Virus record (IMG/VR): IMGVR_UViG_3300039367_000062
Coordinates: 1 to 5,437 of that record
Strand: one strand, 5' to 3'
Origin: a virus
Lineage: Duplodnaviria > Heunggongvirae > Uroviricota > Caudoviricetes
Length of the DNA: 5,437 bases
Within the stretch, counting starts at the first letter, position 1, and each line of letters begins with the position of its first letter. Positions 1,358 through 5,361 of the stretch are shown here, one piece after another. Both the position numbers and the translations under genes were made by a program. Under the pieces are notes generated by a model. The model was not told where the DNA came from and searched no databases. It saw only the letters and a list, made by a program, of their open reading frames with translations.

Positions 1358-1700
1358 CAAAACAGAGAAGAACACCTGCGGTGGCAGCCGCCCGGATGGA
1401 TTGGGTTATGAGCCCGTCGTCCGGTGATGCTCTTCTCTGTTTTGCAAAAAAGGACGGTACCAGCCGGAAGCAAGGGTACAAACTGGTACCGCCAGGACTA
1501 CACACAGCATAAAGTTGTGGTGCCGGGTGCCTCCCGGTGCCTGGCGAAGGTTGCACACCAGGCGGGTGGGTATCCACAGAAGGTCGACTGTCAGCCTCAA
1601 CCTTAACCCGCGTGCGCTGAGCCGCATTCACCACAACGCTAAGGATTCTCTCTGGTTGAAAATACTTAGCTGTTATGTGCCTGCTTTTAGCCACATCAGG
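1358..1700. other. GC-rich, ORF-poor structured island (candidate ncRNA or cis-acting RNA element)
   Basis: About 62% GC in sampled 60-nt blocks, visibly higher than the flanking genes. All six frames are open but give non-protein-like, P/G/R-rich translations. Perfect 13-bp inverted repeat CAAAACAGAGAAG (1358..1370) / CTTCTCTGTTTTG (1432..1444); 9-bp inverted repeat CGGTACCAG (1455..1463) / CTGGTACCG (1483..1491); GGTGCC three times in 1519..1541 with a CCGGG/CCCGG hairpin. Confidence 0.3.
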
Positions 1701-2508: not shown

Positions 2509-3183
2509 TTAGGCTTTGATTTTGTATCTTCTTGGTTTTCCTGAGAAAATCACAGTTCCAATTATAGAGCAATTACCGTTGATCTTAATGTAAGGCTCAG
2601 GCCAGTTTGGGTTTAACGCTTTGAGATAACGCTGTGTCCCATCTTCTATCAACCTTTTGAAGGTGGTTTCACCTGTATCGTGCATCAATGCAATAACGTC
2701 GTCACCGTGGCAGGCAGGTACTTCAGGATCGACAAAAATCATGTCTCCCGGGCGGTACTCATCAATCATTGAATCACCTATCACCCGCAAGATATAAGTC
2801 ATTTCCCCACAGGGTACAGGGCAGGGATACGTTTCTGCTGTGCTCAAATCAACCTCAGAATATCCAACTTCTTTCCATGCTCCGGCCTGTACCCATGATA
2901 TGACAGGGACTAATGTGATTTGTTTATTAGTGATTGAAACATCAGGTTTTTTTGTGATGTTCGTTGTCTGGTGTTCTTGATCGAGCCATCCGACAGGCAG
3001 GTCGAAACATTTTTCGATGTGTCGTGCCATGCTGTCACCGATATTTTTAGTAGCACCATCTCCCATAAACCTGCTGGTCTGGGTTGGCTCGCGATCAATC
3101 ATAGTGGCAAAGGAAGAATTCCCGCCAACACCATCTCTCAGTTTTCTGGCGTTAGACCGCCGGATGTCATGGATTGTTTTCAT
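2509..3183 (-). CDS. CI-type prophage repressor: N-terminal HTH, C-terminal S24 (LexA-like) autopeptidase domain
   Basis: 224-aa ORF. C-terminal domain carries the Ser/Lys dyad signature (VIGDSM ... TTFKRL) typical of LexA, lambda CI and UmuD. N-terminal region is HTH-like (QTSRFMG...ARHIEKCFDLPVGWLD). It is divergent from the Cro-like gene, with operators between. Confidence 0.9.
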   Translation of the reverse strand: MKTIHDIRRSNARKLRDGVGGNSSFATMIDREPTQTSRFMGDGATKNIGDSMARHIEKCFDLPVGWLDQEHQTTNITKKPDVSITNKQITLVPVISWVQAGAWKEVGYSEVDLSTAETYPCPVPCGEMTYILRVIGDSMIDEYRPGDMIFVDPEVPACHGDDVIALMHDTGETTFKRLIEDGTQRYLKALNPNWPEPYIKINGNCSIIGTVIFSGKPRRYKIKA

Positions 3184-3189
3184 AACGAA

Positions 3190-3218
3190 ATTAAAACCCT
3201 TGTACCGTTAAGGTACAA
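3190..3218 (-). promoter_or_regulatory. pRM-like promoter for the repressor gene (possibly leaderless mRNA)
   Basis: On the minus strand: -35 TTGTAC (plus 3213..3218, inside the palindromic operator), 17-bp spacer, -10 TTTAAT (plus 3190..3195) ending 6 nt before the repressor ATG. No Shine-Dalgarno precedes the ATG. Confidence 0.3.
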
Positions 3219-3219
3219 G
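3199..3219. promoter_or_regulatory. Perfect palindromic operator (OR candidate)
   Basis: CTTGTACC-GTTAA-GGTACAAG: 8-bp perfect arms around a 5-bp centre, in the repressor/cro intergenic region, just upstream of the pR-like -35 and overlapping the pRM-like -35. Confidence 0.5.
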
Positions 3220-3223
3220 TATC

Positions 3224-3251
3224 TTGAAGGTTCATTTCAATCATGTAATAT
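3224..3251 (+). promoter_or_regulatory. pR-like promoter for the cro-like operon
   Basis: -35 TTGAAG (3224..3229), 16-bp spacer, -10 TAATAT (3246..3251); predicted transcript start just upstream of the GGAGG Shine-Dalgarno. Confidence 0.4.
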
Positions 3252-3261
3252 GTATACCGGA

Positions 3262-3275
3262 GGTACATATTGTAT
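3262..3275. promoter_or_regulatory. Operator-like site overlapping the cro-like ribosome-binding site and start codon
   Basis: GGTACATATTGTAT, a near-duplicate of 2437..2450; it contains the cro-like ATG. Confidence 0.35.
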
Positions 3276-3474
3276 GAAAGCGTATTGGGACTCTTTAACC
3301 AAAGAACAGCAGGGCGAGTTGGCCGGAAAAGTTGGCTCAACACCTGGCTACTTACGGCTGGTTTTCAATGGCTATAAAAAAGCCAGTTTTGTGCTGGCTA
3401 AAAAACTTGAGCAATGCACGTCAGGTGCAATTACGAAATCTGACTTAAGACCGGATATCTATCCGAAAGATTAG
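3274..3474 (+). CDS. Cro-like small HTH regulator (66 aa)
   Basis: Internal ATG of the 2971..3474 ORF, whose upstream part is antisense to the repressor gene. GGAGG at 3259..3263, 10 nt upstream. Protein MKAYWDSLTKEQQGELAGKVGSTPGYLRLVFNGYKKASFVLAKKLEQCTSGAITKSDLRPDIYPKD has a small HTH-like pattern, and the position is the first rightward gene divergent from the repressor. Confidence 0.75.
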   Translation: MKAYWDSLTKEQQGELAGKVGSTPGYLRLVFNGYKKASFVLAKKLEQCTSGAITKSDLRPDIYPKD

Positions 3475-3505: not shown

Positions 3506-4075
3506 ATGAGGCTAATCGTGGGTAAGCATCACTGGAAAATAGAAAAACAGCCTGAGTGGTACGTGAAAGCTGTCAGAAAAACTATCGCGGCGTTGCCGGG
3601 TGGTTACGCTGAAGCGGCTGACTGGCTCGATGTAACAGAAAACGCTTTATTCAACCGCCTTCGTGCAGATGGCGATCAGATTTTCCCGCTGGGATGGGCA
3701 ATGGTTTTACAGCGTGCTGGTGGCACTCATTTCATTGCTGATGCTGTGGCGCAGTCTGCAAATGGCGTCTTTGTGTCTCTTCCTGACGTCGAGGATGTGG
3801 ACAACGCCGATATTAACCAGCGTCTGCTGGAAGTCATTGAACAGATCGGCAGTTATTCAAAACAGATTCGTTCAGCAATCGAAGACGGTGTAGTGGAACC
3901 GCATGAGAAGACAGCAATTAACGACGAGCTGTATCTCTCAATTTCGAAGCTGCAGGAGCATGCAGCACTTGTCTACAAAATTTTTTGCATTTCAGAAAGT
4001 AATGACGCCCGCGAGTGTGCAGCTCCGGGCGTCGTGGCGTCGATTGCTTCTGGTTGTGGAGAAACTAACGCATGA
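3506..4075 (+). CDS. CII-like / YdaT-like early regulatory protein (putative), 189 aa
   Basis: Second gene of the rightward operon, occupying the cII position. Alternative GTG start at 3518 has a GAGG 6 nt upstream. The functional assignment is positional and from weak family resemblance only. Confidence 0.65.
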
Positions 4076-4410
4076 ACAGTTTAACAACACACTACCGTCG
4101 CTCGCAACTGATTGCGCTTCCTGTACCGGGTGGAAAAGCGAAGGTGGAATATTGCTATGCAGTGAATGTACCAGGTGACAGGGAAATTGTAACCCACAGC
4201 TTTGCAGAGTGGGCTGTGGGGGATTTCAACCGGCAGAAGGAGACAGTCCTTTGCGACAAGTTAACCGCTGGTTCAAAGATCACTACGGAGTGCCCGTCAG
4301 AGTCATTCGTTGGGAACCGGAAACACAACGGGTTATCTACCTCCGCGAAGGCTATGAGCATGAGTGCTTCAGTCCGCTCGAACAGTTTCGTCGTAAATTC
4401 AGGGAAATAG
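4072..4410 (+). CDS. Hypothetical small protein; only the 5' part (4072 to about 4250) looks coding in this frame
   Basis: Its ATG overlaps the preceding stop (ATGA at 4072..4075), suggesting translational coupling. Codon usage is coding-like up to about 4250; after that the frame gives a Ser-rich low-complexity tail with rarer codons. Confidence 0.3.
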
Positions 4411-4430
4411 AGGTCGGTCATGAGCACTAA
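4251..4430 (+). CDS. Hypothetical small protein (about 59 aa) upstream of and overlapping the replication gene start
   Basis: TTG at 4251 with AAGGAGA 7 nt upstream (GTG 4209 is an alternative start). The translation ...[56 protein letters not shown] is protein-like with preferred codons. It overlaps the next gene by 11 nt. Confidence 0.45.
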
Positions 4431-5361
4431 ATTAACCGGCTATGTATGGGATGGTTGCGCAGCGTCAGGCATGAAATTATCCAGCGTGGCAATTATGGCC
4501 CGCCTGGCTGATTTCAGTAATGACGAAGGTGTGTGCTGGCCATCGATTGAAACCATTGCCCGCCAGATTGGCGCGGGGATGAGTACAGTCAGAACGGCTA
4601 TCGCACGGCTGGAAGCAGAAGGCTGGTTAACGCGTAAGGCGCGTCGCCAGGGTAACCGCAATGCGTCGAATGTTTATCAGCTTAACGTTGCGAAGCTTCA
4701 GGCTGCGGCATTTTCTCAACTGTCAGATTCTGACCCGTCAAAATCTGACGCATCAAAATCTGACCCGTCAAAATTTGATGCGTCGAAATCTGGCAAAAAA
4801 GCGGGTTTTCACCCGTCAGAATCTGGCGGGGATCCGTCAGTAAAATCAAAACATGATCCGTCAGATAAAAAACCTTCTCGTCCGGACGCTTCGCAACCGG
4901 ACACGCAGACGGCTGAACAGGATTTTTTAACTCGCCATCCTGATGCGGTTGTATTCAGCCCTAAAAAGCGCCAGTGGGGGACGCAGGATGATTTGACCTG
5001 CGCACAGTGGCTCTGGAAAAAAATCATCGCCCTGTACGAGCAGGCTGCCGAATGTGACGGCGAGGTGGTTCGTCCCAAAGAACCGAACTGGACAGCCTGG
5101 GCAAACGAAATTCGCCTGATGTGTGTGCAGGATGGTCGTACTCACAAACAAATCTGCGAGATGTACAGCCGCGTCAGCCGCGATCCGTTCTGGTGCCGTA
5201 ACGTGCTCAGCCCGTCGAAGCTGCGGGAAAAATGGGATGAGCTTTCCCTGCGCTTATCGCCGTCCGTAAGCACGTACACCGAAAAACGCGAAGACCCGTA
5301 CTTCAAAGCCAGTTACGACAACGTGGACTACAGCCAGATCCCGGCAGGATTCAGGGGGTAA
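4420..5361 (+). CDS. Replication initiator (lambda O-like): N-terminal HTH DNA-binding domain, repeat linker containing the origin iterons, C-terminal domain
   Basis: 313-aa ORF with GAGG 6 nt upstream. The N-terminal [13 protein letters not shown]...MSTVRTAIARLEAEGWLTRKARRQGNRNASNVYQLNV is an HTH of the type found in phage replication initiators. An internal 15-bp tandem repeat array encodes SK[SF]D[PA] repeats. It sits in the O position after the cro/cII-like genes. Confidence 0.85.
   Translation: MSTKLTGYVWDGCAASGMKLSSVAIMARLADFSNDEGVCWPSIETIARQIGAGMSTVRTAIARLEAEGWLTRKARRQGNRNASNVYQLNVAKLQAAAFSQLSDSDPSKSDASKSDPSKFDASKSGKKAGFHPSESGGDPSVKSKHDPSDKKPSRPDASQPDTQTAEQDFLTRHPDAVVFSPKKRQWGTQDDLTCAQWLWKKIIALYEQAAECDGEVVRPKEPNWTAWANEIRLMCVQDGRTHKQICEMYSRVSRDPFWCRNVLSPSKLREKWDELSLRLSPSVSTYTEKREDPYFKASYDNVDYSQIPAGFRG
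4722..4796. repeat. Iteron array (candidate phage replication origin) inside the initiator gene
   Basis: Five tandem 15-bp units: GTCAGATTCTGACCC, GTCAAAATCTGACGC, ATCAAAATCTGACCC, GTCAAAATTTGATGC, GTCGAAATCTGGCAA. Each has a GTCA...TGAC internal dyad. Degenerate copies (CCGTCAGAATCTGG, CCGTCAGTAAAATC, CCGTCAGATAAAAAA) continue to about 4875, followed by A/T-rich stretches. Confidence 0.7.

What the first reader, a model, noticed from the sequence alone, without database searches (positions are those of the whole stretch)
4072..4430. Coding signal switches reading frame near 4250: frameshifted gene, pseudogene, or two overlapping small genes
The frame starting at the coupled ATG 4072 has good codon usage until about 4250. 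After that the other frame (TTG 4251, strong AAGGAGA Shine-Dalgarno) looks coding, while the first frame decays into a Ser-rich tail that only ends at 4410. A paired TGTACC motif (4122..4127 and 4167..4172) and the CGCAA-CTGA-TTGCG palindrome (about 4108..4121) lie in the same stretch and could be regulatory sites. The region may be a decayed gene, a recoding event, or a small protein co-translated with the replication gene.
Basis: seen in the sequence. Interest (0 to 1): 0.4.

Follow-up and report, generated by a model that had tools for sequence, protein, structure and literature searches.

The report
Two overlapping prophage genes: ymfM and DUF4222
The frame switch is real: a small conserved gene (DUF4222) lies out of frame inside the second half of the prophage cell-division-inhibitor gene ymfM, an arrangement kept in many related phages, so it is unclear which product gives the published ymfM phenotype.

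Summary
The window is the immunity/replication region of an e14/SfII/SfIV-like lambdoid prophage of E. coli. ORF 4072-4410 is ymfM (112 aa), annotated in K-12 as the SOS-induced division inhibitor SfiC. ORF TTG4251-4430 is a 59-aa DUF4222 protein (Pfam E 3e-19). PGAP annotates DUF4222 and omits ymfM.

Comparative data confirm the frame switch:
- Codons 1-60 of ymfM are under purifying selection (pN/pS 0.01-0.35).
- From 4251 on, selection acts in the DUF4222 frame (0.05-0.25).
- The ymfM tail shows none (0.87-2.1) and is predicted disordered.

This is not a pseudogene or a recoding site. There is no slippery heptamer. DUF4222 has its own conserved start and GGAG in every lineage. Fused forms are sporadic indels at different positions.

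The ymfM frame nevertheless stays open across DUF4222 in all 120 unique overlapped loci. That includes lineages with scrambled synonymous sites, where chance gives 0.06-0.16 each. It always stops within about 12 nt of the replication-gene ATG. Stop-creating synonymous codons are avoided: 0 of 58 at-risk codons against 14 of 48 controls. DUF4222 genes with no ymfM reading into them mostly carry stops in that frame.

Best reading: two real overlapping genes, with the ymfM read-through kept for translational coupling to the replication gene (inferred). The TGTACC pair and the palindrome are coding by-products.

The parts
3506..4075 (+). ymfL, a CII/CP76-like regulator. PGAP starts it at 3518. Its TGA stop overlaps the ymfM ATG as ATGA.
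   Evidence: Pfam PF06892 E 1.3e-13; phrog_101 CII-like activator; annotation; sequence.
4072..4251 (+). ymfM codons 1-60, the conserved N-terminal domain. This is the part of ymfM that behaves as a protein-coding sequence.
   Evidence: pN/pS is 0.01-0.35. There are 22 invariant residues across 18 homologues. It occurs alone as 65-78 aa ORFs in L008-L012. It is homologous to a second N-domain type (hhalign probability 97.8%). AlphaFold pLDDT is 55-71 for residues 1-67.
4252..4410 (+). ymfM tail (codons 61-112 plus TAG 4408-4410), read in the +1 frame of DUF4222. It is Ser/Thr/Ala-rich, its amino-acid sequence is unconstrained, but it is kept free of stop codons.
   Evidence: pN/pS is 0.87-2.1, and DUF4222 pS is as high as in the non-overlapped part. 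pLDDT is below 40. The frame is open to +157..+172 in 120/120 unique overlapped loci. At-risk codons end in A/G in 0/58 cases against 14/48 controls, p = 4.6e-6.
4237..4243 (+). Shine-Dalgarno AAGGAGA for DUF4222, lying inside ymfM.
   Evidence: Sequence. A GGAG/GGAGG sits at -14..-9 in every lineage although the ymfM residues it encodes differ.
4251..4430 (+). DUF4222 gene, 59 aa, TTG start (WP_001250269.1). A small SH3/Tudor-like beta-barrel. Its stop lies 8 nt inside the replication gene.
4408..4422 (+). Junction TAG-AGG-TCG-GTC-ATG. The ymfM stop overlaps the GAGG Shine-Dalgarno (4410-4413) of the replication gene, whose ATG is at 4420.
   Evidence: Sequence. In nine lineages the ymfM stop lies from 12 nt before to 10 nt after the replication-gene ATG. 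Where DUF4222 does not follow directly (L008-L010), ymfM still stops at or up to 20 nt beyond the next gene's start.
4420..5361 (+). O-like replication initiator (HTH_36 N-terminus).
   Evidence: Pfam; phrog_391 E 8e-136; annotated as replication protein O or primosomal protein in phages.
4122..4172 (+). Two same-strand TGTACC(R)GGTG copies (4122-4132, 4167-4177). They encode V-P-G twice and are not operator sites.
   Evidence: D15. There is no inverted partner. The first copy is absent in most lineages.
4103..4116 (+). Palindrome CGCAA-CTGA-TTGCG within the codons for SQLIA.
   Evidence: The hairpin is -3.8 kcal/mol, z = 0.10. The stem codons are invariant in 11 lineages, but the whole ymfL/ymfM junction is unusually conserved at nucleotide level.
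4218..4222 (+). G5 run. Variant P0065 switches from the ymfM frame to the DUF4222 frame at this run.
   Evidence: The P0065 sequence (119 aa, 14 members) switches frame at ...AVGGFQP....

Best explanation
Region 4072-4430 holds two real, separately initiated genes of the early rightward operon of an e14/SfIV-type lambdoid prophage.

(1) ymfM. Its functional protein part is the first 60 or so codons. It is translationally coupled to ymfL by an ATGA overlap.

(2) A 59-aa DUF4222 beta-barrel protein. It starts at TTG 4251 with its own Shine-Dalgarno sequence inside ymfM, in the -1 frame relative to ymfM. It ends just inside the replication-initiator gene.

The Ser-rich second half of ymfM is the +1-frame read-through of DUF4222. 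Its amino-acid sequence is not selected. Its openness is selected, so ribosomes that started on ymfM terminate on the Shine-Dalgarno sequence of the replication gene, 9 nt before its ATG.

Shown here:
- both coding regions are under purifying selection;
- DUF4222 has a conserved start and Shine-Dalgarno sequence;
- the tail sequence is free to vary;
- stop codons are avoided in the tail frame;
- the stop sits next to the replication-gene start in every lineage.

Inferred: the open tail serves termination-reinitiation coupling of ymfL and ymfM translation to the replication initiator. Both upstream frames would then deliver ribosomes to that start.

Consequence: the published pBAD-ymfM clone and the ymfM deletion also carry or remove DUF4222. 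The SfiC division-inhibitor activity is therefore not yet assigned to one product.

The confidence of 0.7 covers the whole statement. I put the two-gene anatomy at about 0.9 and the coupling role at about 0.5.
For: Identity of the ORFs:
- 100% match to E. coli prophages. MG1655 annotates ymfM b1148 'cell division inhibitor YmfM' (112 aa) and no DUF4222. PGAP genomes annotate DUF4222 (59 aa) and no ymfM.
- Phage records (SfII, SfIV, PhiR49_1) annotate only ymfM.

Selection:
- pN/pS values are. The four MG1655 differences in the overlap are silent in DUF4222 and non-synonymous in ymfM.
- The DUF4222 family is 64-100% identical across Enterobacteriaceae with a fixed start. The ymfM tails are only about 25-50% alike.

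Independence of the two genes:
- The ymfM N-domain occurs as a 65-78 aa ORF without DUF4222 (L008, L009), or separated from it by a Rha-like gene (L010-L012).

Open frame:
- In 80/80 loci fetched through DUF4222 alone, the +1 frame runs from an upstream ATG to a stop at exactly +157.
- It is also open in lineages with only 34-47% DUF4222 identity and near-random 4-fold sites.
- Synonymous randomisation gives P(open) = 0.06-0.16 per lineage. The product for five lineages is about 7e-6.
- At the cluster level 18.7 stop-creating codons are expected and 0 are observed. A/G-ending codons are 0/58 at at-risk sites against 14/48 at control sites, p = 4.6e-6.
- 30 of 34 unique DUF4222 genes with no ymfM reading into them carry +1 stops inside the gene.

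Other:
- AlphaFold predicts a disordered tail and a confident DUF4222 fold.
- The experiments used only the whole ORF or a whole-gene deletion.
Against: - There is no direct evidence here that either frame is translated. No ribosome-profiling or proteomic data were found.
- The coupling role is inferred from geometry only. The RNA around the replication-gene start shows no significant structure that would make coupling necessary (z = +1.0).
- DUF4222 translation could by itself deliver ribosomes to that start, so the need for a second coupled frame is not obvious.
- Lineages are not fully independent, so the p-values are approximate.
- A composition-dependent role for the disordered tail is not excluded.
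- In-window codon statistics do not discriminate the frames.
Confidence: 0.7

Rival explanations
1. True dual coding. The 52-residue tail is a working part of the 112-aa YmfM protein, for example a disordered Ser/Thr-rich region needed for division inhibition or for turnover. The frame would then be kept open for the protein's sake, not for coupling.
For: The frame is kept open in all overlapped lineages. The tails keep a Ser/Thr/Ala/Gly-rich composition. The only tested construct was the full 112-aa ORF, and it is active.
Against: Tail pN/pS is 0.87-2.1, and DUF4222 synonymous diversity is not reduced. Natural homologues of 65-78 aa lack the tail. pLDDT is below 40. The composition follows from the conserved DUF4222 codons. 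The stop tracks the next gene's start in every architecture.
Confidence: 0.2
2. Only DUF4222 matters downstream of 4251, and the long ymfM ORF is open by chance or by descent. There is no selection on the tail frame.
For: A single lineage has a 6-16% chance of being open. Many loci are close relatives. 4 of the 34 unique DUF4222 genes with no ymfM reading into them are also open.
Against: The frame is open in at least five lineages with scrambled synonymous sites. 18.7 stop-creating codons are expected and 0 are observed, and the same genes use A/G-ending codons at sites that are not at risk. The stop is made at the same place by different codons: ATA-G in the window and TTA-A in others.
Confidence: 0.05
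3. Programmed -1 frameshifting joins the ymfM N-domain to DUF4222 to give a fusion of about 118 aa.
For: DUF4222 is in the -1 frame, and that frame is open from 4179. Fused proteins of 102-119 aa exist in databases. A G5 run lies at 4218-4222.
Against: There is no X_XXY_YYZ in frame, and the local fold is not significant. The fusion junctions differ from case to case. DUF4222 has its own conserved start and Shine-Dalgarno sequence, and it is a free-standing gene elsewhere.
Confidence: 0.02
4. A decayed or frameshifted gene, or a sequencing indel: one ancestral ORF broken near 4250.
For: The apparent frame change and the low-complexity tail.
Against: The identical arrangement is present in 1,909 E. 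coli genomes at 80% coverage or more, in inducible phages and in distant genera. Both parts are under purifying selection. No lineage has a conserved single ORF.
Confidence: 0.01

Closest known systems
E. coli K-12 e14 prophage gene ymfM (b1148), reported as the SOS-inducible, SulA-independent division inhibitor SfiC (Ansari et al., bioRxiv 10.1101/2020.11.19.390815)
   Same: Same gene. There are 5 nucleotide differences in 359 nt, and the product is 112 aa with the same ymfL-ymfM-replication gene order.
   Different: The published work treats the 112-aa ORF as one protein. Here only the first 60 or so codons behave as a selected protein sequence, and a second conserved gene lies inside the rest.
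Pfam DUF4222 (PF13973) / phrog_1343, small prophage proteins of unknown function
   Same: Full-length match above the curated cut-off. Identical to WP_001250269.1.
   Different: Nothing differs in sequence. What is added is its context. It always ends on the start of a replication-initiator gene. In the e14 type it is nested out of frame in ymfM.
Out-of-frame nested or overlapping phage gene pairs, such as lambda Rz/Rz1 (from general knowledge)
   Same: One gene with its own start lies in another frame inside a longer ORF, and the arrangement is conserved across relatives.
   Different: In Rz/Rz1 both products are functional proteins. Here the overlapped part of the longer ORF shows no amino-acid constraint, only stop avoidance.
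Translationally coupled gene chains with stop/start overlaps (ATGA and termination-reinitiation, from general knowledge)
   Same: ymfL/ymfM share ATGA. The ymfM stop lies 9 nt before the replication-gene ATG and the DUF4222 stop 8 nt after it.
   Different: Two different upstream frames end at one start. Coupling was not tested.
Small prophage division inhibitors: lambda Kil, Rac KilR, Qin DicB (as cited)
   Same: Small early-operon prophage products that block Z-ring formation on induction.
   Different: No sequence or fold similarity was found. DUF4222 matches only generic SH3/Tudor-like barrels. Which of the two products acts is unknown.

Membership tests
DUF4222 (PF13973) | Match to the Pfam model above the gathering score over the whole domain | tested here: met
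   68.7 bits against a cut-off of 27, model positions 1-52 of 53. Also phrog_1343, E 2e-34.
DUF4222 (PF13973) | An independently initiated small gene of about 59-70 aa with a conserved start | tested here: met
   ATG, GTG or TTG at the same position, with GGAG 9-14 nt upstream, in all lineages. It is free-standing in L010-L012 and L186-L229.
YmfM / SfiC (K-12 b1148, phrog_1170) | Sequence identity and synteny with K-12 ymfM (after ymfL, before the replication gene) | tested here: met
   5 differences in 359 nt, same neighbours. phrog_1170 E 6e-70.
YmfM / SfiC (K-12 b1148, phrog_1170) | Inhibits Z-ring formation when expressed | not testable with these tools
   Reported for the whole ORF in K-12. 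That clone also contains the DUF4222 Shine-Dalgarno sequence, start and 53 of its 59 codons (inference from coordinates).
Programmed -1 ribosomal frameshift site | In-frame slippery heptamer X_XXY_YYZ | tested here: not met
   None in 4072-4405 in the ymfM frame.
Programmed -1 ribosomal frameshift site | Conserved trans-frame fusion product, with no independent start for the downstream frame | tested here: not met
   Fusions are rare and have different junctions. The downstream frame has a conserved start and Shine-Dalgarno sequence.
Pseudogene / frameshifted gene | Relatives carry one uninterrupted ORF, and the broken copy shows relaxed selection | tested here: not met
   All lineages show the same two ORFs. 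pN/pS is well below 1 in both coding parts.
Dual-coding (overprinted) gene pair | Both frames stay open over the overlap across divergent relatives, more often than chance allows | tested here: met
   120/120 unique loci are open. P(open) by chance is 0.06-0.16 per lineage. 0/58 against 14/48 codon test.
Dual-coding (overprinted) gene pair | Amino-acid constraint in both frames, seen as reduced synonymous rate in the overlap | tested here: not met
   pS of DUF4222 (0.05, 0.34, 0.22) is about equal to pS of the non-overlapped ymfM part (0.06, 0.28, 0.26). Tail pN/pS is 0.87-2.1.
Translational coupling by termination-reinitiation | Upstream stop within a few nucleotides of the downstream start | tested here: met
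   The window has TAG 4408-4410 and ATG 4420. The offset is -12 to +10 nt in nine lineages. ymfL/ymfM share ATGA.
Translational coupling by termination-reinitiation | Downstream translation depends on upstream translation | not testable with these tools
   This needs reporter fusions. No occluding RNA structure is predicted.
Repressor operator of this prophage (TGTACC-N5-GGTACA) | Inverted pair of half-sites, conserved in relatives | tested here: not met
   4122 and 4167 are same-strand half-sites whose right halves do not match. The first is lost in most lineages. The true palindrome is at 3199-3219.

The most novel reading that the evidence does not exclude
The SfiC cell-division block credited to the 112-aa YmfM may be caused, wholly or jointly, by the hidden DUF4222 protein. 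The annotated C-terminal half of YmfM would then be a sequence-indifferent read-through kept only to carry ribosomes to the replication-initiator start.
Probability: 0.3. Interest if true: 0.6.

Novelty: new member of a known kind. Interest (0 to 1): 0.45.

Why it matters
ymfM is the accepted answer to the 35-year-old question of which e14 gene is sfiC. It is now used as an SOS filamentation gene in work on uropathogenic E. coli.

The module is present in about half of complete E. coli genomes (2,685 of 5,426). Curated annotation and automatic annotation each show only one of the two genes there.

Every ymfM clone and deletion made so far also carries or removes a strongly conserved second gene. 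Two point mutations would separate the products:
- T4262A stops ymfM at codon 64 and is silent in DUF4222.
- T4251C weakens the DUF4222 start and is silent in ymfM.

The locus is also a clean natural case of a reading frame kept open without constraint on what it encodes. That bears on how overlapping ORFs should be judged in annotation.

Tried and rejected
- In-window codon-usage log-odds per frame did not separate the frames.
- Rfam at a permissive threshold gave nothing in 4072-4430.
- The promoter and terminator scan gave no promoter and only weak stem-loops.
- RNA folds of the palindrome, the DUF4222 start and the replication-gene start were not better than shuffles.
- No slippery site was found.
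- The antisense ORF 4155-4427 has a variable length in other lineages and was dropped.
- The YmfM model was too poor to search (pLDDT 52).
- The first viral-contig scan with YmfM returned only near-identical loci.
- The ymfL segment could not serve as a pS control, because pN was as high as pS, which suggests misaligned or mosaic sequence.
- The 6-bp length difference in some E. coli hits lies in ymfL, not in the overlap.
- No paper was found with both ymfM and ribosome profiling, and none of the five DUF4222 papers deals with ymfM or e14. The 2004 e14 analysis (PMC331406) is not held.

Full report
**What the window is.** The 5.4-kb window is the immunity and early-replication region of a lambdoid prophage of E. 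coli. It is 100% identical to strain ST3 over 3900-4600, and 2,685 of 5,426 complete E. coli genomes hold a match. The same module occurs in the K-12 e14 element and in inducible phages such as SfII, SfIV and PhiR49_1.

The gene order is:
- LexA-like repressor ymfK/cohE, 2509-3183 (-);
- cro-like ymfT, 3274-3474;
- CII/CP76-like ymfL, 3506-4075;
- the region in question, 4072-4430;
- an O-like replication initiator, 4420-5361.

**The observation.** ATG 4072 overlaps the ymfL stop as ATGA, and that frame ends with TAG 4408-4410 after 112 codons. TTG 4251, preceded by AAGGAGA at 4237-4243, opens a 59-codon frame that ends with TAA 4428-4430.

The first ORF is ymfM. MG1655 annotates it as b1148, 'cell division inhibitor YmfM', 112 aa, and annotates nothing in the other frame. 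The second ORF is a full-length DUF4222 domain (PF13973, 68.7 bits against a cut-off of 27). PGAP annotates it as WP_001250269.1 and leaves ymfM out, even in a K-12 derivative. Phage records annotate only ymfM. No record I looked at shows both.

**Is the frame switch real?** Codon-usage log-odds trained on the window's other genes do not separate the frames. Substitution patterns do. I used about 110 unique homologous loci, grouped by type of ymfM N-domain.

| Segment and frame | pN/pS |
|---|---|
| Non-overlapped part of ymfM, ymfM frame | 0.01-0.35 |
| Overlap, DUF4222 frame | 0.05-0.25 |
| Overlap, ymfM frame | 0.87-2.1 |

Synonymous diversity of DUF4222 in the overlap (0.05, 0.34, 0.22) equals that of the non-overlapped ymfM part (0.06, 0.28, 0.26). 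The tail therefore adds no constraint on the nucleotides.

The window differs from MG1655 at five positions in 4072-4430. The four in the overlap are all silent in DUF4222 and all change the ymfM tail. DUF4222 proteins are 64-100% identical across Enterobacteriaceae and all start at the position of TTG 4251. YmfM homologues share a well-conserved N-terminal domain of about 60 residues, but their tails are Ser/Thr/Ala-rich and poorly alike. AlphaFold gives pLDDT 55-71 for YmfM 1-67 and below 40 for 68-112. DUF4222 folds confidently (81.5) into a five-strand barrel with a short helix.

**Not a pseudogene and not recoding.** The same two-ORF arrangement is found in every lineage. The few single-ORF fusions in the protein database (P0031, P0053, P0059, P0065) join the frames at four different places, one of them the G5 run at 4218-4222. 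They are therefore sporadic indels or assembly errors. There is no X_XXY_YYZ heptamer in the ymfM frame, and no significant local RNA structure.

DUF4222 has a start codon (ATG, GTG or TTG) and a GGAG 9-14 nt upstream in all lineages, although the ymfM residues encoded there differ. The two genes are also separable in nature:
- In Entomohabitans and Atlantibacter prophages, a 75-78 aa YmfM homologue is followed directly by the replication gene, with no DUF4222.
- In Erwinia, Klebsiella spallanzanii and Mixta, a 65-aa YmfM is followed by a Rha-like gene, then a free-standing DUF4222, then the replication gene.

**The unexpected part: the tail frame is kept open.** In 80 of 80 viral loci fetched through DUF4222 alone, the +1 frame is open from an upstream ATG (-179 or -167) to a stop at exactly +157, as in the window (4408 - 4251 = 157).

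The upstream N-domains fall into three types:
- the YmfM type (A);
- a second type clearly homologous to it (hhalign probability 97.8%, E 1e-12);
- a third type that is only marginally similar (probability about 46-48%).

More distant lineages have DUF4222 only 34-47% identical to the window's over the first 33 codons, and their 4-fold sites are close to random. These were fetched through full-length YmfM homologues. They still have the ymfM frame open across the whole gene.

Several tests argue against chance:
- Randomising synonymous codons while keeping each DUF4222 protein gives an open +1 frame in only 6-16% of trials per lineage. For five lineages that share little at synonymous sites, the product is about 7e-6.
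- I took one observation per sequence cluster and site. That gives 58 Val/Leu/Ile codons where an A- or G-ending synonym could create a stop. Codon usage predicts 18.7 stop-creating choices, and none is seen.
- At those sites A/G-ending codons are 0 of 58. At Val/Leu/Ile codons of the same genes that are not at risk they are 14 of 48 (Fisher p = 4.6e-6; per-site table).
- The stop at +157 is made by different codon pairs in different lineages: ATA-G in the window and TTA-A in others.
- As a control I fetched DUF4222 genes with no ymfM-like ORF reading in. Of 34 unique genes, 30 carry +1-frame stops inside the gene, at +1 to +94.

The clusters are related, so these p-values are approximate. The direction is consistent throughout.

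**Where the frame ends.** In nine lineages the ymfM stop lies between 12 nt before and 10 nt after the ATG of the replication initiator, whichever type of initiator follows. In the window the junction reads TAG-AGG-TCG-GTC-ATG, and the stop overlaps the GAGG Shine-Dalgarno sequence. The DUF4222 stop is also next to that start: ATGA in some lineages and 8 nt inside in the window. Where DUF4222 does not follow ymfM directly, ymfM is short but again stops at the next gene's start: 8 nt past it in L008, ATGA in L009, and 20 nt past it in L010.

**Mechanism.** The shown facts are:
- two selected coding regions;
- an independent conserved start for DUF4222;
- an unconstrained but stop-free tail;
- a stop pinned to the next start.

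My inference is that ymfL, ymfM and the replication initiator form a translationally coupled chain. The ymfM read-through across DUF4222 would be kept so that ribosomes terminate at the initiator's ribosome-binding site. DUF4222 is translated from its internal start and delivers ribosomes to the same point. I put about even odds on this coupling role.

The main rival is that the disordered tail itself matters for the protein. Three things count against it: the free amino-acid change, the natural tail-less homologues, and the way the stop tracks the next start. It is not excluded.

**Function of the products.** Ansari et al. showed that arabinose-induced expression of the ymfM ORF blocks Z-ring formation, and that deleting ymfM reduces SOS filamentation in a sulA mutant. 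The earlier library clone spanned ymfL 142-185, ymfM and ymfN 1-92.

By coordinates, the cloned ORF contains the DUF4222 Shine-Dalgarno sequence, its start and 53 of its 59 codons, which covers all predicted secondary-structure elements. The deletion removes both genes. The experiments therefore do not say which product is SfiC.

**The proposed regulatory motifs.** TGTACC is enriched in the window: 10 copies against 1.5 expected. The prophage operator is the palindrome CTTGTACC-GTTAA-GGTACAAG at 3199-3219. The two copies inside ymfM are on the same strand and lack the inverted half. Both come from the codons T-GTA-CCN-GGT-G for Val-Pro-Gly, and the first is absent from most lineages, which have Pro-Met-Pro-Gly-Gly.

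The palindrome lies at 4103-4116. It folds at -3.8 kcal/mol (z = 0.1) and encodes the invariant SQLIA. Its stem codons are invariant in 11 lineages, but the whole ymfL-3'/ymfM-5' junction is unusually conserved at nucleotide level. I did not explain that.

**Verdict.** Both genes are individually known. Neither the conserved nesting, nor the selection for an open but sequence-free tail, nor the resulting ambiguity about SfiC appears in any paper or genome record I examined. I rate it a new member of a known kind (out-of-frame overlapping phage genes), of moderate interest.

Noticed in passing
window 1286, 1475, 2437, 2813, 2888, 3201, 3212, 3262 (plus 4122, 4167): TGTACC/GGTACA occurs 10 times against 1.5 expected, and none of 200 shuffles reaches 10. 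Besides the operator palindrome at 3199-3219 and an imperfect one near 3250-3268, five copies lie in or near other genes and were not explained.
   Followed up: partly
window 1444-1667 (-): A sub-threshold Rfam match to the sRNA family STnc100 (40.3 bits, gathering score 47, E 2e-6). It lies in a region with GGTACC/GGTACA repeats, between the leftward genes and the 1777-2294 ORF.
   Followed up: no
window about 4013-4040 and 4056-4095: The 3' end of ymfL (GAGTGTGCAGCTCCGGGCGTCGTGGCG) and the first 25 or so nt of ymfM are nearly invariant at nucleotide level in 14 lineages whose synonymous sites are otherwise scrambled. This could be a recombination linker or an RNA or DNA site.
   Followed up: partly
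L006 2680-2859 (Phytobacter sp. V91): DUF4222 has an in-frame stop at codon 7 (the conserved Trp/Arg position), while the overlapping ymfM frame stays open for 113 codons. This may be a natural DUF4222 knock-out or a sequencing error.
   Followed up: no
window 4408-4422; also L096, L183, L179, L177: ymfM and the replication gene are in the same reading frame, separated only by the stop and 1-3 codons (TAG AGG TCG GTC ATG in the window). Read-through of the stop would fuse them.
   Followed up: no
window about 4735-4800: Direct repeats (TCAAAATCTGAC...) inside the O-like gene encode DPSKSDASKS repeats. They look like origin iterons within the initiator gene and cause a spurious mir-5880 match.
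   Followed up: no
window 4236-4253: The minimum-energy fold pairs the DUF4222 Shine-Dalgarno sequence (AAGGAG) with CCUUUG, which includes the TTG start. That could make its initiation depend on ribosomes translating ymfM. The fold is not significant (z = -1.1) and the pairing was not evident in other lineages.
   Followed up: partly
window 4155-4427 (-): A 90-codon antisense ORF spans DUF4222. The stop-free antisense run varies from 60 to 109 codons in other lineages, so it is probably a by-product.
   Followed up: yes
proteins P0072, P0076, P0089; loci L096-L175: The region is mosaic. At least three N-domain types are joined to the same DUF4222 gene, and DUF4222 ends in at least four C-terminal variants (59, 61, 68 and 70 aa), depending on the replication gene downstream.
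   Followed up: partly
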